Assembly (NCBI GenBank): GCA_017883615.1
Contig: JADGNF010000023.1
Coordinates: 1,664-65,663 of the forward strand
Direction of reading: 5' to 3'
DNA length: 64,000 nt
DNA from: Candidatus Bathyarchaeota archaeon
GTDB lineage: Archaea; Thermoproteota; Bathyarchaeia; Bathyarchaeales; Bathycorpusculaceae
Positions 6,252-55,522 of this stretch are shown here, piece by piece. The stretch's first letter is position 1, and the number at the start of each line of letters is the position of its first letter. The translations under genes and the position numbers were made by a program. Below the pieces are notes generated by a model. That model worked only from the letters and a program-made list of their open reading frames with translations. It did no database searches and had not been told where the DNA came from.

Positions 6252-7679
6252 TTACTTCTTGTTGGTGAGATATTCGTGCATTGCTTTTGCTGCACGTTTA
6301 CCTGCACCCATGGCGCTGATTACTGTGGCTGCACCTGTAGCAACATCTCCGCCTGCGTAAACTCCGTCAAGGCTGGTTTTCCCAACTTCGTTCACTGTTA
6401 TGGTTCCGTGTCTCGGGTCACTTTGTAAGCCTTCGGTTGTGCGTTGTATGATTGGGTTTGGAGTTTGTCCGATGGCGATTATTACTGTGTCAACTTCCAT
6501 GGTGAATTCGCTATCAGGAATGACTTTCACACCGCGTCTGCCTTTCGCATCTGGTTCAGTGAGTTCCATGCAAACGGCTTTCATGCTCTTAACCCAGCCC
6601 CGTTCGTCGCCGTAAAACTCGACTGGAGCCGCCAAGAATTTGCAGACTAAGCCTTCTTCTTCAGCGTTTTCGATTTCTTCGTGTCTAGCTGGCAGTTCGT
6701 CGCGGGAACGTCGGTAAACAAGGCAAACGTCAGAACCCAGACGCATGGAGCATCTTGCGCAGTCCATGGCAACGTTTCCGCCGCCTATGACGACGACGTG
6801 TTTGCCGATGCGGATTGGGGTGTCGTATTCTGGGAACAGATAGCCTTTCATGAGGTTAACACGGATGAGGAATTCGTTGGCTGAGTAGATGCCGCCTAGG
6901 TTTTCGCCTGGGCAACCTGTGAACTGTGGCAAACCTGCGCCGCTTCCGATGAACACGGCGTCGTATCCGCCTTCCTTCATCAGTTCGGGTATAGTGTGAG
7001 TTCTTCCAATCAAGTTACCCAACCGCAAGTCTACACCCAATTTCTGGACGTAATTGACTTCGTTTTGGACGATGGCTTTTGGCAAACGGAACTCTGGAAT
7101 ACCGTAAGAGAGCACTCCTCCTCCGACATGGAGAGCCTCAAACTCGGTGACTTCGTGACCTTGCTTAATTAAGTCCGCTGCTACTGTGAGTCCGGCTGGA
7201 CCAGCGCCGATAACCGCGACTTTCTTGCCTGTTGGCGTGGGTTTGGGGGGAAGTTGTGAGCCATTTTCGCGTTCCCAATCTGCCAGAAACCGTTCTAAAC
7301 GTCCGATGCTGATTGGGTCGCCCATTTTTCCAATGACACACTTGCTTTGGCATTGTACTTCCTGAGGGCATACACGTCCACAGACTGCAGGCAGCGCGTT
7401 TTTTGTCTTTATTGCGGCTATGCCTTCAGCGTATTTCTTTTCTTTGATGCATTTAATGAATGTTGGAATAGGAACTTCCACTGGGCAAGCCGTCATGCAC
7501 TGAGGCTTTGGGCAGGTCAAGCATCTGCTGGCTTCCTCCTGTGCTTCTGCTTCGGTGTATCCTAGGGCAACTTCTTTAAAGTTTTTGGCTCGGACTTTAG
7601 GCTCTTGCTTAGCCATTTCTACAGCTTTCTTGTTGAGTTTTGGTTTAGGCTTTGTTTCCGCCACACTTACAACCTCCAC
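6252..7679 (-). CDS. NfnB/SudA/GltD-like NAD(P)H-dependent FAD/Fe-S oxidoreductase (glutamate synthase small-subunit family)
   Basis: 475 aa. N-terminal Cys clusters (CLTCPKPQCMTACP, CGRVCP..C..C). Two Rossmann GxGxxG motifs (VAVIGAGPAGL, VVVIGGGNVAMD). C-terminal GVYAGGD. GTG start overlaps the end of the upstream NfnA-like gene. Confidence 0.85.
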   Translation of the reverse strand: MEVVSVAETKPKPKLNKKAVEMAKQEPKVRAKNFKEVALGYTEAEAQEEASRCLTCPKPQCMTACPVEVPIPTFIKCIKEKKYAEGIAAIKTKNALPAVCGRVCPQEVQCQSKCVIGKMGDPISIGRLERFLADWERENGSQLPPKPTPTGKKVAVIGAGPAGLTVAADLIKQGHEVTEFEALHVGGGVLSYGIPEFRLPKAIVQNEVNYVQKLGVDLRLGNLIGRTHTIPELMKEGGYDAVFIGSGAGLPQFTGCPGENLGGIYSANEFLIRVNLMKGYLFPEYDTPIRIGKHVVVIGGGNVAMDCARCSMRLGSDVCLVYRRSRDELPARHEEIENAEEEGLVCKFLAAPVEFYGDERGWVKSMKAVCMELTEPDAKGRRGVKVIPDSEFTMEVDTVIIAIGQTPNPIIQRTTEGLQSDPRHGTITVNEVGKTSLDGVYAGGDVATGAATVISAMGAGKRAAKAMHEYLTNKK

Positions 7680-8481
7680 TTGTTTCCCACAATAGTGAAC
7701 CTAAGCGCTCCTCAGGGAGCATTGTGCGTTGACGCAAAATTAACTCTTCAAAGTTGGTTTGGTGACCGTCAAATTCGGGTCCGTCAACGCATCCAAACAT
7801 CATTTTTCCGCCGACGGTGACTCGGCACACACCACACATTCCCATGCCGTCAATCATGATTGGCGTCAAAGTAACGACGGTTGGAATGCCAAAGGGTTTG
7901 GTGATTGCGCTGACATCTCGCATCATGACCACGGGACCCATAACGACACATCGGTCAAATTTTTCTTTCTTCAACAGATCGTTGAGGAAGTCTAAGCCTT
8001 TGTTGCCGTAGGAGCCGTCGTCTGTTGCGACGTAGACTTTGTCGCTTAGCGTCTTGGCTTCTTTTTCCATTATCATGGCCTCTTTGGTTCTTGCGCCCAA
8101 GACGGTGGTGACTTGGTTGCCGGCTGCTTTCATGGCTTTAACTTGGAGCAGTAGGGGTGCGATCATGATGCTTCCGCCGATGCAAAGAACTTTGCCGAAC
8201 TTTTTGATTTCAGAAGGATTGCCCAAAGGTCCAGTGACGTTAAGTATCTCTTGACCTTCGCTATAGCAACCCAGTTCTTTGGTGGTTTTGCCGACTTCGT
8301 GGAAAGCAAACGAAACCGTGCCCTTCTTGGCGTCGTAGCCGCTGATGGTTAACGGTACCCGTTCGCCTTTTTCGTGGGGAACCACTATGAGGAATTGGCC
8401 TGCTTGAGCTTTTGCAGCTATGTCTGGGGCTTCAACTTCGAAGAGGGTTTCTTTGTGTGAAAGCGTTTTCTTGCTAATTAT
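7645..8481 (-). CDS. NfnA/SudB-like ferredoxin-NADP reductase-type subunit (FAD barrel, NAD-binding domain, C-terminal 2Fe-2S Cys cluster)
   Basis: The ORF track starts at GTG 8385 (MVPHEKGERVP...). The same frame stays open for 32 more codons: ISKKTLSHKETLFEVEAPDIAAKAQAGQFLIV. That matches the usual N-terminus of this family. C-terminal CGVCRV...FGCVDGPEF. I place the start at ATA 8479-8481, so the start is uncertain (see findings). Confidence 0.8.
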   Translation of the reverse strand: MISKKTLSHKETLFEVEAPDIAAKAQAGQFLIVVPHEKGERVPLTISGYDAKKGTVSFAFHEVGKTTKELGCYSEGQEILNVTGPLGNPSEIKKFGKVLCIGGSIMIAPLLLQVKAMKAAGNQVTTVLGARTKEAMIMEKEAKTLSDKVYVATDDGSYGNKGLDFLNDLLKKEKFDRCVVMGPVVMMRDVSAITKPFGIPTVVTLTPIMIDGMGMCGVCRVTVGGKMMFGCVDGPEFDGHQTNFEELILRQRTMLPEERLGSLLWETSGGCKCGGNKA

Positions 8482-9707
8482 TTTGTACGTTTTCCTTTCG
8501 CCTCCGTCTTAATAGCTACAGTGCTCTGGGGCATTGCAGCAATCTTTTGGTAGAAAGATTCGAACTTGGGTTTGAATTCGCCTTGACATCTAGGGGATAG
8601 CTCGACGTATTCGAAGCGGTCGCTCAGGCCCATTTTTTGGAGCACATCTCGCAACACTGCCAGTTGGCGTTCTGCGACGTCTCGGCCTTCTTGGAGTTTG
8701 CAGTCTGTTGCGGAGCAAACTACGCCCATGACGCCATCAAATCCCGCTCGGAACGCATTCATGACGTGTACGGGGTCCATTGATTTGAAGCAGGGAACTT
8801 CGAGGACCATAGCGTTTTTGCCTTTGAGCACGCTGTCAGGGTCATCTAAGCCTGCGTACTCGGACCATTGGCAGCTAAAAACCACCACGGCTGGAACCTT
8901 CTTTGCCGCCTTGAGTTTAGTGACTGCGTTTGCGTATTTTTCCATGACGTTGTTGAATTCGAAACCTTTCACTTGGATTGCGTCGTGAGGACAAACCAAC
9001 TGGCAGGCGCCACAGCCGGTGCATTTCTCCATGTCTATTTTGGGGTTTGCGAAAGACTGCGCGGTTATGGCTTTGTAGGGGCAGATGAAAACGCATTTGT
9101 CGCAGCCAACGCATTCTTCGGTGACGTGTACTGCTTTGCGGCTGTACTTTACGACTTTGACGGCGTCTTTGCTGTATCCAAGTTGTTCGAGAACTGCTTG
9201 ACCGAGCATAAGGCGTCGGGTTTCAATCTTTGTGCCTTCCTTCATACGGCAGAACGCGTCTTCGCATTGGACCGAGACTATGTTTTTGATGCCGCCTTGG
9301 AGGACGTTGAAAACGAAGTCTGTTGGAATCCTTCCCGCGCATGGAACACGCAACGGGATATAATTCTTCACGTTTAGACCTTGCTCCTTGAAGATGTCAG
9401 CCATTTCGCCGTCTGTGGGCGAGTTGCCTCGGCACATCATGACAAGGGTGTCGGCTTTCACGGTTTTCTTTTCACAGTTAACGTAGTCTATTAGGTGATT
9501 GTAGTCGTAGTAGGCCATCTCTATGGCGGTGACGGGACAGGCGCTGTAGCATATTCCGCAAACCTGACATTTCTGGTTGTCTATTTCGACTTTGCAGGTT
9601 TCCGCGTCACGGGTTATGGCTTCAAACGGGCACATAGAATAGCAGACTTGACATCGACTACACAGGTCTTGGTTAATTTTTACGGCAGCGAGACACATTT
9701 CACTCAT
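8478..9707 (-). CDS. Fe-S protein: tandem [2x(4Fe-4S) ferredoxin + MvhD/FlpD-like domain] x2 fusion
   Basis: 409 aa with four CxxCxxCxxxCP motifs: CSRCQVCYSMCP, CQVCGICYSACP, CVGCDKCVFICP and CTGCGACQLVCP. Each ferredoxin pair is followed by an MvhD-like block. Block 1: LVMMCRGNS...RVPCAGRI...VSVQCEDAFCRMKEG. Block 2: VVFSCQWSEY...EVPCFKSMD...VVCSATDCKLQEG. Confidence 0.75.
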   Translation of the reverse strand: MSEMCLAAVKINQDLCSRCQVCYSMCPFEAITRDAETCKVEIDNQKCQVCGICYSACPVTAIEMAYYDYNHLIDYVNCEKKTVKADTLVMMCRGNSPTDGEMADIFKEQGLNVKNYIPLRVPCAGRIPTDFVFNVLQGGIKNIVSVQCEDAFCRMKEGTKIETRRLMLGQAVLEQLGYSKDAVKVVKYSRKAVHVTEECVGCDKCVFICPYKAITAQSFANPKIDMEKCTGCGACQLVCPHDAIQVKGFEFNNVMEKYANAVTKLKAAKKVPAVVVFSCQWSEYAGLDDPDSVLKGKNAMVLEVPCFKSMDPVHVMNAFRAGFDGVMGVVCSATDCKLQEGRDVAERQLAVLRDVLQKMGLSDRFEYVELSPRCQGEFKPKFESFYQKIAAMPQSTVAIKTEAKGKRTK

Positions 9708-10061: not shown

Positions 10062-10697
10062 ATGCCTATGGAATTAAGCGCTGACGCACAAAAAGTTCTC
10101 CTCAGAATCTACATAGGTCAGAATATTAGAGATGAGGGAATTCTCCAATCTGAAGTCAAAAACAAGGAGACAGAGGAACTTCTAGCGCGAGGAATCATTG
10201 AGCAAAACCATTGGCATTTACCGGAATTCAAGACTACCAATTATGGAACTGCTGTCGCAAGCGAAATCGTCAATGCAAAGATTGACCAAAATAGAACCGC
10301 CTTAAGCGAAAAATTAAGGCTAATTCCAGAAAAAGTTATTGGGTTTTTTAATAGGAGATACCTATCTAAGAAGCTAAATTTCTCTACCGAAAGAGGTAGA
10401 AACGAAACATTCTTTTACTCTGATTCCTGGGCCGACGCAATACTTTTCGACAGTCGAATTTGGTTCCTATGGAACGCGTTCTTTGAAACGCTAATTCCAT
10501 TTGAACTGTGCACAAAAACACATTACTACGTGTCTACAAAGGGCGGGGCGATCAGAGATTATCGTTTTGTAATTTGCCCTGAAGTGCGGGATTTTGCAAT
10601 TCGTAACTTTGACGCTGTGGATTTTACAACGGTTGAGGAAAATACGCTTTCACTCTACCCATTTCTGCGATTAGCAAAAAGTATTGTCTCCATTTGA
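10062..10697 (+). CDS. hypothetical protein, first gene of the TIR island
   Basis: 211 aa in the AT-richer island. No motif recognised; the N-terminal ~50 aa may be helical or wHTH-like. Its 3' end overlaps the TIR gene by 14 nt. Confidence 0.5.
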   Translation: MPMELSADAQKVLLRIYIGQNIRDEGILQSEVKNKETEELLARGIIEQNHWHLPEFKTTNYGTAVASEIVNAKIDQNRTALSEKLRLIPEKVIGFFNRRYLSKKLNFSTERGRNETFFYSDSWADAILFDSRIWFLWNAFFETLIPFELCTKTHYYVSTKGGAIRDYRFVICPEVRDFAIRNFDAVDFTTVEENTLSLYPFLRLAKSIVSI

Positions 10698-11940
10698 CGA
10701 TGTGGAACAAATTCGAGAACGATTCTATAGTTTGTACAAATCATCAAGATTAAGCGAAGGGCAGGTTGCTGCAATAATTGGTGAAATGAGTAAGAGGAGA
10801 ATCACCTCCGAATTCCAAGGTTTTCTATCAGAATGTAAGCCGTTTACAATTCTGAACCCAACAATGTATGATATTTACTTGGAAAAGGAAATTATTGATG
10901 CGGCAACTACCAACCTTTTAAAAGGAATCGGCACAATTAAAAATTACGAATCGGAATATATCTCATCCAGTTCCAGCGGAGAAAGAGCCAAACATGAATC
11001 TGTAACGCCCAAGTTCCAAGTTTTCATTTGCTACAGAAGAGATACTGGGGAAGATTTTGCAGAACACCTGAAAATTGGTTTGGAAAAGTTCGGCATACGT
11101 GCGTTTCTTGATATCAAAGACATCCCAGAGAAATTTAAAGGAACAGAAAAATGGGTGGATATTCGAGATAATGCCATCCGTGAAAGTCAAACGTTCCTGC
11201 TTATTGTGACTCCCGGTTTTTGCGAATCATCTGAAGTCAAGAAAGAATTGAACGCAGGAGTTTCAATTGATAAGTACATAGTATGTTTCAGGCACAAAGA
11301 CATGCACTCGAATCTGAGAATCGATTTAAAAAACAAAGAAATTGACTTGAGTAAACTGCAACAGATAGTTTTTGATACAAAACAAGATCTACTTCGCAAA
11401 GCCCACAGAATTTTGGTGGAAGAAAAAAACAACTCACCACCTGCTGAAACTGTAAACGAAAATACGGCGTTAAATAATTCATGGGGAATAGTCACAAATA
11501 ATGAAAAACAATCGGACTTATTTTTGACAAAAAATTGGAATCCCTTGCCAGTGGTCAAGTTCAACATATCTCAAAATCTAGCCGATGTTTTTCAATTCCC
11601 GCAGGTAGGGTGGGAAGCGTATAATTACAGTCCATACCAGCTTAAGATCAGGATAAATGTTCGCCCAAAACTCGGGGACAAAAAGCTGTATCCCCTTGCT
11701 GATGATGACATAAATGGAACTAAATCTTACGCAGCCGAACCTAATAGTCCAGTTTGGAAGAACGGTTGTTTTTCATTACCCACAGAGTCTGTGCAAAGCA
11801 AAGCAGACCTTATTCTAGAAATACAATCCACGGTATTTGATGTTAACGAGCCAGAAAAAGGAGAATACAATATGCTGCCCAGCATTTGGAAATACAACCG
11901 AAAAGATAACACATGGGATTATTACCCTCAGGGGTTTTAA
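10684..11940 (+). CDS. TIR-domain protein with unknown N- and C-terminal domains
   Basis: 418 aa. The central block FQVFICYRRDTGEDFAEHLKIGLEKFGIRAFLDIKDI...TFLLIVTPGFCESSEVKKELNAG...YIVCF follows the prokaryotic TIR pattern (vFISYrr-D, G-i-vFlD, vvvllSp-y--S-wc--EL). The TTG start at 10684 is uncertain; GTG 10702 or a later ATG are possible. Confidence 0.8.
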   Translation: MSPFDDVEQIRERFYSLYKSSRLSEGQVAAIIGEMSKRRITSEFQGFLSECKPFTILNPTMYDIYLEKEIIDAATTNLLKGIGTIKNYESEYISSSSSGERAKHESVTPKFQVFICYRRDTGEDFAEHLKIGLEKFGIRAFLDIKDIPEKFKGTEKWVDIRDNAIRESQTFLLIVTPGFCESSEVKKELNAGVSIDKYIVCFRHKDMHSNLRIDLKNKEIDLSKLQQIVFDTKQDLLRKAHRILVEEKNNSPPAETVNENTALNNSWGIVTNNEKQSDLFLTKNWNPLPVVKFNISQNLADVFQFPQVGWEAYNYSPYQLKIRINVRPKLGDKKLYPLADDDINGTKSYAAEPNSPVWKNGCFSLPTESVQSKADLILEIQSTVFDVNEPEKGEYNMLPSIWKYNRKDNTWDYYPQGF

Positions 11941-31704: not shown

Positions 31705-32103
31705 ATGCATGAATGGGCATTAGCAGAAGCCGTTATCAAGACGGCATCAGAAATCGCAAAGAAAGAAGGATTAAAGCAGGTTACAGAAGTTAGTGTGAAA
31801 ATCGGCGAGCTCCAACAAATAGAACGACCTATTTTCCGCTTCGCACTCGCCCAGATTAAACCCGATAACTTCAAGGATGCCAAGTTCCGCATATCCACGG
31901 CTAAAACGACTCTTAAATGCCGAGTCTGCGGCAATACGTGGACCTACGACAAGAAGAAGATGGATAAGGCAACGGCGGAAGCTATCCACTTCATCCCCGA
32001 AGTAGCCCACACATATATGAAATGTCCTAAATGTGGCAGTCCCGACTTTGAAATCACCCAAGGGCGCGGCGTCTGGCTTGAAAGCATAAAAGGAGCCCGA
32101 TAA
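31705..32103 (+). CDS. hypA: hydrogenase nickel incorporation protein HypA
   Basis: 132 aa read from ATG 31705. N-terminal MHEWALAE (Ni site) and zinc site CRVCG...CPKCG. The ORF-track N-extension from 31636 is hydrophobic junk. Confidence 0.9.
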   Translation: MHEWALAEAVIKTASEIAKKEGLKQVTEVSVKIGELQQIERPIFRFALAQIKPDNFKDAKFRISTAKTTLKCRVCGNTWTYDKKKMDKATAEAIHFIPEVAHTYMKCPKCGSPDFEITQGRGVWLESIKGAR

Positions 32104-32828
32104 CACTGACTGACCCGCGAACAAGCGTAATTAGCCAACGACTCAAGGGGATAAGACGAATAATCGCAGTTTCAAGCGGCAAAGGCGGGGTGGGCAAAAG
32201 CCTCGTCGCAACCACCCTCGCACTATCGCTGGCGCACAAAGGCTGCAAAGTCGGCTTATTCGACCTTGATTTTACAAGTCCCTCAACACACCTTATACTT
32301 GGAGCAAAAGACGCCCAACCCACTGAAGACAAAGGGTTGATTCCGCCTAAAGTTGAGGGATTAGAATACATGTCGCTTATCTATTACTGCGGAAACGGAG
32401 CAGCTCCTTTGCGTGGAGCAGACACATCCAACGCACTGATTGAGTTGCTTGCTGTTACGTTGTGGGGGGATCTGGATTTTCTTGTTATTGATTCGCCACC
32501 GGGAATTGGCGACGCAATGCTTGACCTGGTCAGGCTGGTGCCTGACATCGAGTTCTTGATTGTGACTACCCCGTCCCAACTGGCATTCGAAACAGTCAAG
32601 AAACAACTCCGACTTCTGCAAGAGCTCAAGATCCCCATTGTGGGCGTTGTGGAAAACATGAAGATGACTGAAGCAAAAACGGTTCAGGAGCAAACCCAGT
32701 GTTTGGGCATAAAATTCCTCACAGAAATCCCGTATGACGCCTCAGTAGAATCAGCCATAGGTAACCCAGACAAACTTTTAGCCACAGAGGTTGCTAAGAA
32801 AATCATGAAGCTATCGCAAACACTATAA
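32100..32828 (+). CDS. Mrp/MinD-family P-loop ATPase (archaeal HypB-type candidate)
   Basis: The ORF-track GTG (32190) lies inside the Walker A motif. The open frame upstream reads TLTDPRTSVISQRLKGIRRIIAVSSGKGGVGKS. Also DLDFTSPS, WGDLDFLVIDSPPGIGD and GVVENM. Start placed at ATA 32100, overlapping the hypA TAA as ATAA, with AAGGAG 5-10 nt upstream. Confidence 0.85.
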   Translation: MTLTDPRTSVISQRLKGIRRIIAVSSGKGGVGKSLVATTLALSLAHKGCKVGLFDLDFTSPSTHLILGAKDAQPTEDKGLIPPKVEGLEYMSLIYYCGNGAAPLRGADTSNALIELLAVTLWGDLDFLVIDSPPGIGDAMLDLVRLVPDIEFLIVTTPSQLAFETVKKQLRLLQELKIPIVGVVENMKMTEAKTVQEQTQCLGIKFLTEIPYDASVESAIGNPDKLLATEVAKKIMKLSQTL

Positions 32829-33896: not shown

Positions 33897-34048
33897 TTGT
33901 TCAAAATCAGGCGTCGTTTGTAGGCGCGCGCATATTCGGTTTCTCTGTTATGTCTTCTTGGGTTTCCATGGTTTTATCTTAAAAATGTCCTAAAAGCTCA
34001 TAAGTGCCCGTTTTCACTAATGTGTTTCTGCACTAGAAGGGGAACAGT

Positions 34049-35545
34049 ATAGGCTGCGGTGTCTTCGGCGCAAAAAACTTCGAGAACCAACCAGTCTTTT
34101 CATACGTGTATTGGGGTCTCCGCGCCGAGAATCATCGAGGGCACCAGTCCCACGGCTTCTTAACCTACAACGAAGGTAAATTTTACAGTTACAAAAATCT
34201 GGATTTGGTTCCTAAACTTAAAACCAGCGTCATCCAAGAATGGTTTGGACGGTTACCAGGCAACATAGGCATAGCTAATGTTCGATACACCACATCGGGC
34301 AAATGCGACGACCAATCAATCATACAGGGCACCCAGCCCATGACCGCGGAAGCCGACGGTGTCAAAATAGCGGTTTCTTTCAACGGTAACATCGTTAACA
34401 CCCAGCAACTCCTTCAAGAAGTCACTAAAGAATTTCCCGAGATAAAATGCGGCTGCGACTCAGACTTAGTTTGCAACAAATTGCTAATAGAGCTCAAGAG
34501 CGGCAAAACCCTCCCCGAAGCAGTTAAAGCTACAATGCTAAGCTTAGATGGAGCGTTCTCGGTTCTTTGCATAATGGGCAACGGAGAATTCTTCGCCTTT
34601 AAAGACCCACACGGCATAAAACCCCTCTGTGCTGGACACAGCCCAGACGGAAAAACTCTTGTTTTTTCATCCGAAACGGTCAGCTTAGACATTAACGGGT
34701 TTGAACGCGACTTCGAACTGGAGCCGGGGGAACTCGTAACCACAACCAAAGACGGGCATTTTGAGCGTCATCAACTCATCGAGAAACCCCAGAAAGCTTT
34801 CTGCGCTTTTGAATATGCGTATTTTGCAAGACCTGACTCGCTTTTCGACGGTAGGTATGTTTACGAAATCCGCGAAGAGTTCGGCAGAAACCTCGTCAAA
34901 GAGTACCCTGAAATCAGCAAGAACTCCGACATCGTGCTTTCGGTGCCTGAAACCGGCGACGACCCAGCTATGGGTGTACATGAGGCTTCAGGTTTAAGAT
35001 GGGAACGAGCCAGCCGACGACACCGTTATGTGACGGAACGTGCATTTATTCTCTTGAACAATGAACGGTACTCGACGATTGACCGCAAAGTAAACATTTT
35101 AGGTTCGAAAGTGGATGGGAAACGTGTCATCGTAACTGAGGACAGCATCGTCCGCGGAGACACAACCAAAGTCATCATTGAGAAGCTGCGCAAGTCTGGT
35201 GCAGAGAAAGTTTACATGTTTGTTACTTTTCCGCGTATCATCGGACCATGCTTCTACGGCATCGACATGTCCACTTATGGACAACTCATAGGCTCTACAC
35301 ATAACGAGGAAGAAATCGCCAAAATCATCGGTGCCGACCAGGTTTGCTACCAATCCATAGAGAACCTTGTGAAAGCGACGGGCTGCAAAAAAGAGGACTT
35401 GTGCATGGCATGCATCACGGGCAAATACCCTACACCCCTAGCTCAAGAATTCGCTGACAAAATGAAGACAAGATTCCTTGCCGGCTACCAAGAAAAAACG
35501 AGGATTTACGAAACCGTCAGCGAATCTCAAGGCGTACAGTGGTAA
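34049..35545 (+). CDS. purF: amidophosphoribosyltransferase
   Basis: Ntn-amidotransferase N-terminus (I/M)GCGVFGAKN...YWGLRAENHRGHQSHG, and a PRTase motif VIVTEDSIVRGDT. The catalytic Cys codon (34055) lies upstream of the ORF-track GTG start (34106). Start placed at ATA 34049 (see findings). Confidence 0.9.
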   Translation: MGCGVFGAKNFENQPVFSYVYWGLRAENHRGHQSHGFLTYNEGKFYSYKNLDLVPKLKTSVIQEWFGRLPGNIGIANVRYTTSGKCDDQSIIQGTQPMTAEADGVKIAVSFNGNIVNTQQLLQEVTKEFPEIKCGCDSDLVCNKLLIELKSGKTLPEAVKATMLSLDGAFSVLCIMGNGEFFAFKDPHGIKPLCAGHSPDGKTLVFSSETVSLDINGFERDFELEPGELVTTTKDGHFERHQLIEKPQKAFCAFEYAYFARPDSLFDGRYVYEIREEFGRNLVKEYPEISKNSDIVLSVPETGDDPAMGVHEASGLRWERASRRHRYVTERAFILLNNERYSTIDRKVNILGSKVDGKRVIVTEDSIVRGDTTKVIIEKLRKSGAEKVYMFVTFPRIIGPCFYGIDMSTYGQLIGSTHNEEEIAKIIGADQVCYQSIENLVKATGCKKEDLCMACITGKYPTPLAQEFADKMKTRFLAGYQEKTRIYETVSESQGVQW

Positions 35546-50282: not shown

Positions 50283-51429
50283 TTATGGCGGTCCTCCTGC
50301 AATTTCCACCGCTTTCATAGCAGCTTCCTCCATGCTATCAAAAACTGGCAAATTCGCTTCAGCAAGTATGCGTTGCCCTTCTACTTCGTTTGTCCCAACA
50401 AGTCTAATCGCTATAGGCTTCGATGCGACCAATTCTTTTCGCGCTTGAATTATACCTCGCGCAACTTCGTCGCATAAGGTAATGCCGCCCAAAATATTCA
50501 CGAATAGCACTTTAACCTGCGGATTTGTCAGGAGAATCTTGAATGCTACTTCGATTCTTTGGAGACGAGCTCCGCCGCCCAGATCCAAGAAGGATCGCCG
50601 GTTTTCCTCCGTAGAGGTTTATCATGTCAAGCGCCGCCATCACTAAGCCAGCGCCGTTGCCCACAACGCCGATGTCCCCATCAAGCATAACATAGTCCAA
50701 GCCGTTCTTTAGCGCTTCAAACTCTTCTGAGCTAAGATCCCTCACTTCCTGCAGGCGTTTTTGCCGATATTCGTCATGCCTAAAGAGCGCATTATCGTCT
50801 AAGATTATGCGAGCATCAACGGCAACGAATTTTCCGTTTTGAGTTTCCACAAGCGGATTCAGCTCCACCAACTCGGCATCAAAATCTACGTTTGCTCTGT
50901 ACACTCTCGCCATAATTTCCGTGAGAGCCTGCATTTGGTCGCCAACATACCCCAAGTCCTTTGCCATTTGCCTTGCGTGGAAGCTGCGAAAACCCAATTG
51001 CGGATTTATGAGTTGTTTGTAGATTTTTTGCGGCTGAAGCTCTGCCACTTCTTCAATGTCTACGCCGCCGAAGTTCGAAGCCACCGCGATGTAACATCGG
51101 TTGAGTCTGTCAACCGTAATGCCAAAATAAAGTTCCTTCTTTACCGGAATTTTTTCTTCAACCAAAACCTTCGAAACTGGCACGCCCTTTATCTATGAAC
51201 CTAAAAGTTTCCCCGCAGCCTCCCCCGCTACTTTTGAGGAGATAACAAATAGGATTCCGCCTGCTTTTCCTCGTCCTGAAACCAAAACTTGAGCTTTAAC
51301 CGCGAGGGGCACTGCAAGTTTAGCTGCAACTTCGCGGGCTTGCGCCTCGGTTGTAGCTAGCTCGCCATCGGGGATTGGGACTTCATAAGTTGCGATTATA
51401 GTCTTGGCTTCGTACTCGTAGAGTTTCAA
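50283..51429 (-). pseudogene. sucC: succinyl-CoA synthetase beta subunit, interrupted by an in-frame TAG (51193-51195) and a 1-nt frameshift (about 50589-50595)
   Basis: Three ORF-track fragments (51193..51429, 50512..51183, 50283..50588) together read as one SucC. Fragment 1: MKLYEYEAKTII...KAQVLVSGRGKAGG...LLGS. After the TAG: IKGVPVSKVLVEEKIPVKKELYFGITVDR...GNGAGLVMAALDMINLYGGKPAI. After the shift: FLDLGGGA...NILGGITLCDEVA... Confidence 0.8.
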
Positions 51430-55443: not shown

Positions 55444-55522
55444 TGGTAGCGGGGAGTAGATTTGAACTACTGATCTCTGGGTTATGAGCCCAGCGGGTTA
55501 ATCCTGGCTACCCCACCCCGCT
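55444..55522 (-). tRNA. initiator tRNA-Met (anticodon CAT), CCA encoded
   Basis: The minus strand reads AGCGGGGTGGGGTAGCCAGGATTAACCCGCTGGGCTCATAACCCAGAGATCAGTAGTTCAAATCTACTCCCCGCTACCA. It has an A1:U72 pair, three consecutive G:C pairs at the bottom of the anticodon stem (CTGGG/CCCAG) and the loop CTCATAA. These are hallmarks of archaeal initiator tRNA. Confidence 0.9.

What the first reader, a model, noticed from the sequence alone, without database searches (positions are those of the whole stretch)
34034..34108. purF: the catalytic Cys1 codon lies upstream of every canonical start, and only ATA is available
After the in-frame stop TAG (34034-34036) the purF frame reads AAG GGG AAC AGT ATA GGC TGC GGT GTC TTC GGC, that is K G N S I G C G V F G. 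CGVFG is the N-terminal nucleophile motif that every class-II (Ntn) amidophosphoribosyltransferase needs.

The first ATG/GTG/TTG in this frame is GTG 34106, which is 17 codons after that Cys. Between the stop and the Cys codon the only near-cognate codon is ATA 34049-34051. It is preceded by the purine-rich GAAGGGGAA.

The same situation occurs at 8479-8481 and 32100-32102. Three independent conserved genes in 64 kb argue for genuine AUA initiation, or another non-standard initiation mechanism, rather than random error.
Basis: partly seen in the sequence, partly recalled or inferred. Interest (0 to 1): 0.78.

Follow-up and report, generated by a model that had tools for sequence, protein, structure and literature searches.

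The report
Conserved AUA start codon of archaeal purF
In this Bathyarchaeia genome and about two dozen related species, the purine-synthesis gene purF has no ATG, GTG or TTG ahead of its essential first cysteine. It almost certainly starts at a conserved ATA, and a neighbouring gene starts at ACG, so standard gene finders cut off the catalytic residue.

Summary
The sequence is as described: TAG 34034-36, then AAG GGG AAC AGT ATA(34049-51) GGC TGC(Cys) GGT GTC TTC GGC, with the first canonical start at GTG 34106.

It is not an error. 24 related species-level Bathyarchaeia genomes and independent short-read assemblies keep ATA-GGC-TGC. In 7 loci an in-frame TAA, TAG or TGA lies 0-1 codon upstream. 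The site varies only to ATG or ACG, never ATT or ATC. Codon periodicity starts at the ATA, and a purine-rich Shine-Dalgarno-like block sits at the usual -13.

- **8479-81:** this ATA is an internal Ile codon held in place by an overlapping stop. The likely start is ACG 8490..8488, which aligns with ATG in 14 relatives and is ACG in 61 of 78, with GGAGG at -15.
- **32100:** the start is either ATA or CTG 32106.

Near-cognate starts are gene-specific and sporadic, not pervasive. ATA still reads as Ile and ACG as Thr inside genes. The initiator tRNA in the window has a normal CAU anticodon.

Best explanation: Shine-Dalgarno-positioned initiation by Met-tRNAi on near-cognate codons. I found no report of this in archaea, and public annotation holds only the truncated protein. 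No experimental proof exists.

The parts
33986..34004 (+). Promoter-like BRE/TATA element TGTCCTAAAAGCTCATAAG. It is conserved across Bathyarchaeia purF loci (consensus TGTaCTAAAAGcTGATAAA) and ends 44 nt upstream of the ATA.
   Evidence: Alignment of 40 upstream regions. Its function as a promoter is inferred from resemblance to archaeal BRE/TATA, not tested.
34034..34036 (+). In-frame TAG that closes the purF frame 4 codons upstream of the ATA.
   Evidence: It is conserved in L001-L003. Other species have TAA, TGA or TAG 0-4 codons upstream of the ATA.
34036..34044 (+). Purine-rich Shine-Dalgarno-like block GAAGGGGAA. The GAAGG core starts 13 nt before the ATA.
   Evidence: It is the only conserved block in the 21 nt upstream. 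-13 is the modal position of GGAGG before canonical starts in these loci.
34049..34051 (+). ATA, the proposed purF initiation codon.
   Evidence: Among clade loci the codon is ATA in 24, ATG in 2 and ACG in 2, never ATT or ATC. Stops abut it in L006 and lie one codon away in 6 loci. 3-periodicity begins here.
34055..34057 (+). TGC, the catalytic N-terminal nucleophile Cys1 of PurF.
   Evidence: It aligns with Cys1 of 1AO0, 1GPH and 1ECB and with position 1 of TIGR01134.
34049..35545 (+). Full purF coding sequence as proposed: 498 codons including the start, with the stop included in the coordinates. The public call begins at GTG 34106.
   Evidence: The truncated 479-aa form P0001 is the only one on record.
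8501..8505 (-). GGAGG Shine-Dalgarno sequence of the NfnA/PyrK-like gene, 10 nt upstream of the ACG.
   Evidence: GGAGG starts at -15 in 53 and -14 in 14 of 78 orthologous loci.
8488..8490 (-). ACG, the proposed start codon of the sulfide/dihydroorotate dehydrogenase-like FAD/NAD-binding subunit (NfnA/PyrK-like). The CDS runs 8490..7645.
   Evidence: The codon is ACG in 61, ATG in 14 and GTG in 1 of 78 loci at the same position. It matches profile position 1 of NF004862. ATG appears scattered at least 7 times on the tree.
8479..8481 (-). It is an internal Ile codon (residue 4) that overlaps the TAA stop (8480..8478) of the upstream polyferredoxin-like gene.
   Evidence: ATA|TAG in 54 loci and ATA|TAA in 17. 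ATT or ATC appear in 8 of the 79 listed loci, where no TAA/TAG stop overlaps the codon.
32100..32108 (+). Start region of the Mrp/ApbC-type Fe-S carrier ATPase: ATA 32100-02 (overlapping the hypA stop TAA 32101-03) and CTG 32106-08. Neither is canonical. GGAG lies at 32092-95.
   Evidence: Relatives have ATG at the first position and/or GTG at the third. SD spacing is -8 for ATA and -14 for CTG. The first canonical codon, GTG 32190, lies inside the Walker A motif.

Best explanation
purF of this Bathyarchaeia genome is translated from AUA 34049-51. This is the proposed sequence of events:

1. A short leader carrying a purine-rich Shine-Dalgarno-like sequence (GAAGGGG, core 13 nt upstream) positions the 30S subunit.
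2. The ordinary initiator Met-tRNA (anticodon CAU) pairs with AUA with one third-position A:C mismatch.
3. The product begins Met-Gly-Cys.
4. Met and Gly are removed, as must also happen in relatives that encode ATG-GGC-TGC. This exposes Cys1, the Ntn nucleophile.

The same tolerance of single-transition neighbours of AUG explains ACG as the start of the NfnA/PyrK-like gene (8490..8488). It also explains the ATA/CTG start region of the Mrp gene (32100-32108).

What is shown: no canonical alternative exists, the codon is under start-like selection, and the SD is correctly placed. What is inferred: the identity of the initiating tRNA and amino acid, the N-terminal processing, the transcript start, and any regulatory purpose such as low or tunable expression.
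For: - **Not an error.** ATA-GGC-TGC and the upstream TAG are identical in three independent assemblies at 93-94% protein identity, while the 12-nt spacer differs. The state holds in 24 species-level genomes forming one clade down to about 66% identity.
- **No alternative start.** An in-frame stop abuts the ATA in L006 and lies one codon upstream in L009, L017, L021, L023, L024 and L061. All three stop codons occur. Most loci have no canonical start in any frame feeding into the site.
- **Start-like selection.** The site varies only among ATA (24), ATG (2) and ACG (2), although ATA is only 25-30% of Ile codons. ATC appears only in the sister clade, which has an ATG eight codons upstream of the Cys.
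- **Coding begins there.** The pattern of invariant first and second positions with a variable third position begins exactly at the ATA. Upstream, only the purine block is conserved.
- **SD position.** The SD-like core sits at -13, the modal position for canonical starts.
- **Catalytic residue.** The Cys is residue 1 of solved PurF structures and of TIGR01134.
- **Independent second case.** nfnA has ACG in 61 and ATG in 14 of 78 loci at one aligned position with a fixed GGAGG. ATG arises repeatedly on the tree.
- **Sporadic further cases.** Each has an SD and a family profile beginning at or within about 20 residues of the codon.
- **Standard decoding otherwise.** ATA reads as Ile and ACG as Thr inside genes. 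The initiator tRNA in the window has a normal CAU anticodon.
Against: - There is no direct evidence of initiation: no N-terminal peptide, no ribosome profiling and no transcript 5' end.
- The NCBIfam purF equivalog score is below its cut-off (317.6 against 350), so this is a divergent PurF.
- GGC and TGC after the ATA are also nearly invariant at their third positions. Nucleotide conservation alone is therefore not specific to the ATA. The argument rests on which alternatives occur at the site.
- For nfnA, the C and G of ACG also belong to an Arg codon (CGT) of the overlapping upstream gene, which confounds the synonymous-site argument there.
- In families with a clear canonical start column, only 1 of 424 members showed a clean near-cognate start. 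The machinery is therefore not grossly permissive.
- Published work on archaea describes AUG, GUG and UUG as starts and aIF1 discrimination against AUU (PMC7531240, PMC4705826).
Confidence: 0.75

Rival explanations
1. Termination-reinitiation. A ribosome that has translated a short upstream ORF (ATG 34020 ... TAG 34050-52, overlapping the start as ATAG) restarts on the overlapping AUA, so the codon need not be recognised de novo. The same logic would apply to the ATAA overlap at 32100 and to the 13-nt gene overlap at nfnA.
For: The window and L001 carry a 10-codon uORF in the +1 frame ending in the ATAG. The Mrp and nfnA starts do overlap the end of an upstream gene.
Against: Even the close relative L003 lacks the uORF, and so do about 19 of the 26 ATA-start loci. 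Several loci have no canonical start in any frame upstream. purF follows a 440-nt intergenic region with its own promoter-like element.
Confidence: 0.07
2. The mRNA is edited back to AUG: A-to-I at the third base of AUA, and C-to-U at the second base of ACG. Initiation would then be canonical at the RNA level.
For: None from the tools. Both codons are single transitions from ATG, which is what deaminase editing would reverse.
Against: It needs two different editing chemistries targeted to start codons. No conserved RNA structure surrounds the site. Sporadic CTG, ATC and ATT candidates cannot be repaired by A-to-I or C-to-U deamination.
Confidence: 0.04
3. A specialised decoding route. Either part of the initiator tRNA pool carries a modified C34 that reads AUA (as f5C does in mitochondria), or the AUA-reading tRNA-Ile2 (agmatidine) initiates so that the protein starts with Ile.
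For: AUA-reading CAU-anticodon tRNAs exist in archaea (background knowledge). The initiator gene in the window has C34.
Against: It does not explain ACG or CUG starts. ATA behaves as ordinary Ile in elongation. No unusual feature is seen in the initiator tRNA sequence.
Confidence: 0.05
4. Artefact or decay: a sequencing or assembly error, or a purF pseudogene whose function is supplied elsewhere.
For: The same contig has a sucC with an in-frame TAG and a 1-nt frameshift. Single-base problems or gene decay therefore do occur in this window. That is relevant to the window-specific ATG-to-ATA change at 32100.
Against: For purF the ATA is identical in MEGAHIT, SPAdes-type and long-read assemblies from different samples and in 24 species. 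The ORF is intact for 498 codons and aligns end to end with solved PurF. Codon-level purifying selection covers the segment upstream of GTG 34106.
Confidence: 0.02
5. Translation starts at an upstream canonical codon (for example GTG 34004 or 34022) and reads through the TAG, by pyrrolysine insertion or suppression.
For: In-frame GTG codons lie upstream of the TAG in the window.
Against: In relatives the blocking stop is TAA, TGA or TAG at different positions, often with no canonical codon before the next stop. The upstream 21 nt show no coding periodicity.
Confidence: 0.01

Closest known systems
Bacterial infC (IF3) AUU start codon, and other rare non-canonical starts allowed by NCBI translation table 11 (which lists ATA, ATT, ATC and CTG as initiators) (background knowledge)
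   Same: A specific gene keeps a weak, non-AUG/GUG/UUG start codon over long evolutionary time, downstream of a Shine-Dalgarno sequence. Gene finders miss it.
   Different: Here the organisms are archaea, which use aIF1/aIF2 rather than IF3. The codons are AUA and ACG, and ACG is not in table 11. The genes (purF, nfnA) have no known feedback link to initiation fidelity.
Eukaryotic near-cognate initiation (CUG, GUG, ACG, AUA and others) policed by eIF1 and eIF5 (PMC4705826 and background knowledge)
   Same: Single-mismatch pairing of Met-tRNAi. Archaea share the e/aIF1, e/aIF1A and e/aIF2 core. ACG and AUA are among the codons used.
   Different: Eukaryotes scan from the cap and rely on Kozak context. 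Here positioning appears to be SD-based, and the near-cognate is the only start of an essential enzyme rather than an alternative isoform or uORF.
Mitochondrial AUA initiation (AUA reassigned to Met and read by f5C34 tRNA-Met) (background knowledge)
   Same: AUA serves as a start codon.
   Different: In these genomes ATA aligns with Ile, Val and Leu like ATT, not with Met. There is no codon reassignment.
B. subtilis-type [4Fe-4S] PurF with an N-terminal propeptide (PDB 1AO0, 1GPH)
   Same: The alignment is full-length from Cys1. CGVFG is conserved, as are Cys residues aligned with B. subtilis PurF (cluster ligand positions not mapped). Residues before Cys1 must be removed.
   Different: The propeptide would be only Met-Gly, against 11 residues in B. 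subtilis and 8 (MGEQLKIA) in the sister clade of Bathyarchaeia. The NCBIfam equivalog score is below its cut-off.

Membership tests
Amidophosphoribosyltransferase PurF (class II / Ntn glutamine amidotransferase) | N-terminal nucleophile Cys in a CG[VI][FV]G motif, aligned with Cys1 of characterised enzymes. | tested here: met
   Residue 3, counted from the ATA, aligns with residue 1 of 1AO0, 1GPH and 1ECB and with TIGR01134 position 1.
Amidophosphoribosyltransferase PurF (class II / Ntn glutamine amidotransferase) | Full-length match to the curated equivalog model above its cut-off. | tested here: not met
   TIGR01134 scores 317.6 bits against a cut-off of 350, although profile positions 1-432 of 432 are covered. 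E-value to B. subtilis PurF is 3e-74. This is a divergent subfamily.
Amidophosphoribosyltransferase PurF (class II / Ntn glutamine amidotransferase) | Genomic context with other purine-synthesis genes. | tested here: met
   purD lies immediately downstream, and purQ, purL, purS and purM lie within 10 kb.
Genuine non-canonical (near-cognate) start codon | Conserved, functionally required coding sequence lies upstream of every ATG/GTG/TTG, and an in-frame stop excludes a farther start. | tested here: met
   Stops lie 0-4 codons upstream in many species.
Genuine non-canonical (near-cognate) start codon | The codon aligns with ATG in orthologues and shows start-like rather than synonymous variation. 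| tested here: met
   purF: ATA 24, ATG 2, ACG 2, ATT/ATC 0. 16 of the 120 best homologues start MGC. nfnA: ACG 61, ATG 14, GTG 1.
Genuine non-canonical (near-cognate) start codon | Ribosome-binding site at the normal distance. | tested here: met
   GAAGG lies at -13 (purF) and GGAGG at -15 (nfnA). Canonical starts peak at -13, with a range of -17 to -12.
Genuine non-canonical (near-cognate) start codon | Direct demonstration of initiation at the codon (N-terminal peptide, TIS profiling or a reporter). | not testable with these tools
   No expression data were available.
Codon reassignment AUA = Met (mitochondrial type) | ATA codons align with conserved Met positions in orthologues. | tested here: not met
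   ATA aligns with I 45%, V 23%, L 14% and M 3%, the same as ATT.
Recoding by stop-codon readthrough or pyrrolysine | One specific stop codon in frame, with coding signal on both sides. | tested here: not met
   TAA, TAG and TGA all occur at varying positions. There is no periodicity upstream of the ATA.

The most novel reading that the evidence does not exclude
Bathyarchaeia, or at least the order containing this genome, have a heritably relaxed or tunable start-codon checkpoint, for example through altered aIF1/aIF2 or an initiator-tRNA modification. As a result, all three single-transition neighbours of AUG (GUG, ACG, AUA), and sometimes CUG/AUY, work as real SD-dependent start codons. Selection has fixed the weak ones on particular metabolic genes (purF, nfnA) as a built-in expression setting. 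This would be the first archaeal lineage with conserved AUA/ACG initiation. It would make many of its annotated proteins N-terminally wrong.
Probability: 0.4. Interest if true: 0.8.

Novelty: new variant of a known kind. Interest (0 to 1): 0.68.

Why it matters
1. **Translation biology.** Reviews of archaeal initiation list AUG, GUG and UUG as the start codons. A core enzyme whose only possible start has been AUA across a whole clade, plus a second gene on ACG, would extend that list. It would also give a natural system for studying start-codon fidelity in a lineage whose initiation factors are of the eukaryotic type.

2. **Annotation.** 59 of the 120 closest PurF entries in a 5.8-billion-protein collection are called without the catalytic cysteine, and 45 more carry probably spurious N-terminal extensions. 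The correct 498-residue protein of this window is absent from the 15-billion-sequence collection. Start-codon models for Bathyarchaeia genomes assembled from metagenomes should allow ATA and ACG when an SD and homology support them.

3. **Evolution.** The sister clade has ATG eight codons upstream, about 23 nt from the TATA-like box, which looks leaderless. The ATA clade has a short SD-bearing leader. This suggests a switch of initiation mode that left a near-cognate start behind.

Tried and rejected
- **Looking up the window's own truncated PurF by exact sequence.** This failed twice. Relatives P0002 and P0003 worked.
- **Automatic detection of start columns in ortholog alignments.** It picked internal Met columns or was confused by unaligned upstream sequence. 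It was usable only for 19 of 36 families, and the rest were inspected by eye.
- **Flagging ORFs whose BLAST homology starts upstream of the first canonical codon.** This was too noisy: 215 of 833 were flagged, because conserved SD and overlap regions align. It was not used for counting.
- **SD-anchored codon tabulation.** It was dominated by the two anchor genes, so it served only to find extra candidates.
- **Rfam scan of the window and consensus folding of the purF leader.** Neither found a riboswitch or conserved structure.
- **Pfam check of ten other window ORFs with long stop-to-start distances.** All are compatible with canonical starts.
- **Literature searches for ATA/ACG starts in Bathyarchaeia or archaea.** Nothing specific turned up. 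A Methanosarcina Ribo-seq study assigns CTG as the predicted start of 5% of its novel small ORFs.
- **Rejected readings.** These were codon reassignment, stop-codon readthrough, sequencing error for purF and nfnA, and the ATA at 8479-81 as a start.
Full report
**1. The observation**

The window reads TAG (34034-36) AAG GGG AAC AGT ATA (34049-51) GGC TGC (34055-57) GGT GTC TTC GGC. The first ATG/GTG/TTG in this frame is GTG 34106, 17 codons past the Cys.

The ORF is a PurF. Counting the ATA as residue 1, residue 3 (Cys) aligns with residue 1 of mature B. subtilis PurF (1AO0, 1GPH) and E. coli PurF (1ECB). The alignment then runs to residue 467. TIGR01134 positions 1-432 map to residues 3-461, although the score (317.6) is under the equivalog cut-off of 350. 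purD follows, and purQ, purL, purS and purM are nearby.

One detail of the finding is loose: AAG 34037-39 is also a one-base neighbour of ATG.

**2. Who owns the window**

The best PurF homologues are from Candidatus Bathyarchaeota / Bathyarchaeia genomes assembled from metagenomes. The clade includes Candidatus Bathycorpusculum, order Bathyarchaeales. Other window genes (TFB, HypF, his and pur operons, AspRS) fit an archaeon.

**3. It is not an error and no other start is available**

Three independent assemblies at 93-94% protein identity, including short-read ones, keep TAG...ATA GGC TGC. The 12 nt between the TAG and the ATA differ in all three from the window.

In one genome per GTDB species, the ATA state with no nearby canonical start is found in 24 loci. 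In L006 a TAA directly abuts the ATA. In L009, L017, L021, L023, L024 and L061 a stop lies one codon upstream. TAA, TAG and TGA all occur. That excludes an upstream start and excludes readthrough of one particular stop.

Most loci have no canonical start in any frame that could feed the site. A +1-frame uORF ending in the ATAG is present in the window and L001 but is absent from L003 and from about 19 of 26 ATA-start loci.

**4. The codon behaves like a start codon, not like an Ile codon**

Anchoring 28 clade sequences on this codon gives ATA 24, ATG 2, ACG 2, and no ATT or ATC. Yet ATA is only 25-30% of Ile codons in these genomes, and nearby Ile codons use ATC, ATT and ATA freely.

The pattern of invariant first and second positions with a variable third position starts exactly at the ATA. 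In the 21 nt upstream, only a purine block at -12 to -8 is conserved. That block (GAAGG in the window) starts at -13, which is the modal position of GGAGG before canonical starts in these loci.

Among the 120 best database homologues, 16 begin M-G-C, with ATG at the same codon. 45 carry called N-terminal extensions with Ile at -2. 59 are called without the Cys at all.

A caveat: GGC and TGC after the ATA are also almost invariant at their third positions. The argument therefore rests on which alternatives occur, not on conservation alone.

**5. History**

On a PurF tree the ATA-only state forms one large clade, with ATG (L015, L022) and ACG (L026, L027) nested inside it. The sister clade has ATG eight codons upstream of the Cys (propeptide MGEQLKIA), and its -2 codon there is ATA or ATC. 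L028 looks like an independent loss of that ATG. L060, a deeper lineage, also lacks a canonical start.

A BRE/TATA-like element (TGTaCTAAAAGcTGATAAA) is conserved across all of these loci. In the sister clade the ATG lies about 23 nt after it, which suggests a leaderless mRNA. In the ATA clade the start lies 41-44 nt after it, leaving room for a leader of about 20 nt that carries the SD-like block. The promoter and transcript ends are inferred, not shown.

No Rfam family and no conserved structure was found in the leader.

**6. The other two sites**

*Site 8479-81, minus strand.* The gene is a sulfide/dihydroorotate dehydrogenase-like FAD/NAD-binding subunit (NfnA/PyrK-like, NF004862), followed by its GltD-like partner.

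In the two loci where it is ACC, an ATG immediately precedes it. GGAGG starts at -15 or -14 in 67 loci. 48 of the 61 ACG loci have no in-frame canonical codon upstream, and the next canonical codon downstream is typically 9-88 codons in.

Profile position 1 of NF004862 falls on the ACG. On the tree, ACG is the predominant state and ATG appears in at least seven separate places.

Its conservation is explained by the overlapping TAG/TAA stop of the upstream polyferredoxin-like gene.

A caveat: the C and G of ACG are also the first two bases of an Arg codon of that upstream gene. 'Never ACA/ACC/ACT' is therefore not clean evidence here. The absence of any canonical start, the ATG alignment and the SD spacing carry the case.

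*Site 32100-02.* The gene is an Mrp/ApbC-type ATPase whose first canonical codon, GTG 32190, lies inside the Walker A motif.

The window has gATAA where L001-L003 have gATGA. Two codons on, five relatives have GTG where the window and L003 have CTG. GGAG 32092-95 is 8 nt from the ATA but 14 nt from the CTG, and the latter is in the normal range.

The start is therefore non-canonical either way, but ATA versus CTG is open. Because this change is specific to the window, an error or a mildly deleterious mutation cannot be excluded (see section 9).

**7. How general is it?**

I clustered 1761 ORFs from about 145 Bathyarchaeia loci. In 19 families with a clear canonical start column, only 1 of 424 members had a clean near-cognate start: L030 sucC, ATA at profile position 1. 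The other flagged members were mostly fragmented or frameshifted genes, or loci from other lineages.

An SD-anchored search added further candidates. Family profiles begin at or within about 20 residues of the codon for the first five:
- L031 hisA (ATA)
- L014 GPN-type GTPase (ATA)
- L017 and L027 cdhD (ACG)
- L118 ferredoxin (CTG)
- L090 acyl-CoA ligase (ATC)
- L124 RuBisCO-like N-terminus (ATT or CTG; no profile run, judged from the N-terminal sequence alone)

Ten other window ORFs with long stop-to-start gaps are fine with canonical starts. The picture is gene-specific, conserved use (purF, nfnA) on top of a low background of sporadic cases. I had no matched control lineage, so I cannot say whether that background is unusually high.

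**8. Mechanism**

ATA aligns with Ile, Val and Leu exactly as ATT does, and ACG aligns with Thr. So there is no reassignment.

The tRNA at 55444-55522 (minus strand) has A1:U72, three G:C pairs in the anticodon stem and anticodon CAU. By background knowledge of archaeal initiator features, it is a standard initiator tRNA.

AUA and ACG, like GUG, are single-transition neighbours of AUG. The simplest reading is SD-positioned initiation by Met-tRNAi with one mismatch. The resulting Met-Gly is then removed to expose Cys1, as must also happen in the relatives that encode ATG-GGC-TGC. These last steps are inferred.

The rivals are reinitiation after a uORF, RNA editing, a modified tRNA or Ile initiation, error or pseudogene, and readthrough. 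They are weighed in the rivals section. None fits the comparative data as well, but only expression data can exclude editing or a special tRNA.

**9. What is known**

Reviews in the library state that archaea use AUG, GUG and UUG and that aIF1 discriminates against AUU (PMC7531240, PMC4705826). A Methanosarcina Ribo-seq study assigns CTG as the predicted start of 5% of its novel small ORFs (PMC11456600).

I found nothing on ATA or ACG starts in Bathyarchaeia. The full-length proteins with these starts are not in the 15-billion-sequence collection. Only the truncated 479-residue PurF is there.

Near-cognate initiation as such is known in bacteria (infC AUU; table 11 lists ATA), eukaryotes and mitochondria. 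This is therefore a new variant of a known kind, not a new kind.

**10. Verdict**

The purF observation is real and the AUA-start reading is the best-supported explanation (confidence about 0.75). The three-gene generalisation should be restated as AUA (purF), ACG (nfnA) and ATA-or-CTG (mrp). Interest is 0.68: surprising to specialists in archaeal translation, directly testable, and of immediate consequence for annotating genomes assembled from metagenomes.

Noticed in passing
window 50283-51429, minus strand: sucC (succinate-CoA ligase beta subunit, TTG start about 51429) is broken. It has an in-frame TAG at 51195..51193 where eight orthologues have Q, K or R. It also has a 1-nt insertion near 50585 (CTTCTTGGATCT) that shifts the frame before the GGKPA.FLD.GGGA motif. 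sucD downstream is intact. This is either a pseudogene or an assembly error, and it is a caution for window-specific single-base features.
   Followed up: partly
window 55444-55522, minus strand: The tRNA-Met (CAU) gene has archaeal initiator hallmarks: A1:U72, a GGG:CCC anticodon stem and an encoded CCA. The anticodon loop CUCAUAA is standard, with no sequence feature that would explain AUA or ACG reading.
   Followed up: partly
window 33986-34004 and orthologous positions in L001-L047: A 19-nt AT-rich element (TGTaCTAAAAGcTGATAAA) upstream of purF is conserved across very divergent Bathyarchaeia. This is far more conservation than a generic promoter would need, so it could also be a regulator binding site for purine control.
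   Followed up: partly
L030-L041 (sister clade), about 8 codons upstream of Cys1: purF here starts with ATG about 23 nt after the TATA-like box, so it is probably leaderless, and encodes an 8-residue propeptide MGEQLKIA. The ATA clade seems to have replaced this with a short SD-bearing leader. The purine-rich SD-like block may descend from the old Gly-Glu codons (ATGGGAGAA).
   Followed up: partly
L003 (ENA contig_51118), several genes: purD, purL, FTR and other genes are split into fragments, which is typical of indel errors in a long-read assembly. The purF start region is nevertheless identical to the short-read assemblies.
   Followed up: no
window 10675-11940, plus strand: A 421-codon ORF carries a TIR domain (PF13676). 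A PIN-domain ORF lies at 2330-2845. These are possible defence or toxin genes unrelated to the finding.
   Followed up: no
window 6252-7679, minus strand, and 45 orthologues: The GltD-like partner gene (NfnB-type) uses GTG at its start column in all 45 orthologues examined. So both genes of this pair use non-ATG starts (ACG then GTG).
   Followed up: no
L026 and L027, purF start: Two species have ACG-GGC-TGC instead of ATA-GGC-TGC, with ATG-bearing L022 as their close relative. This suggests ATA to ATG to ACG changes at the same start site.
   Followed up: partly
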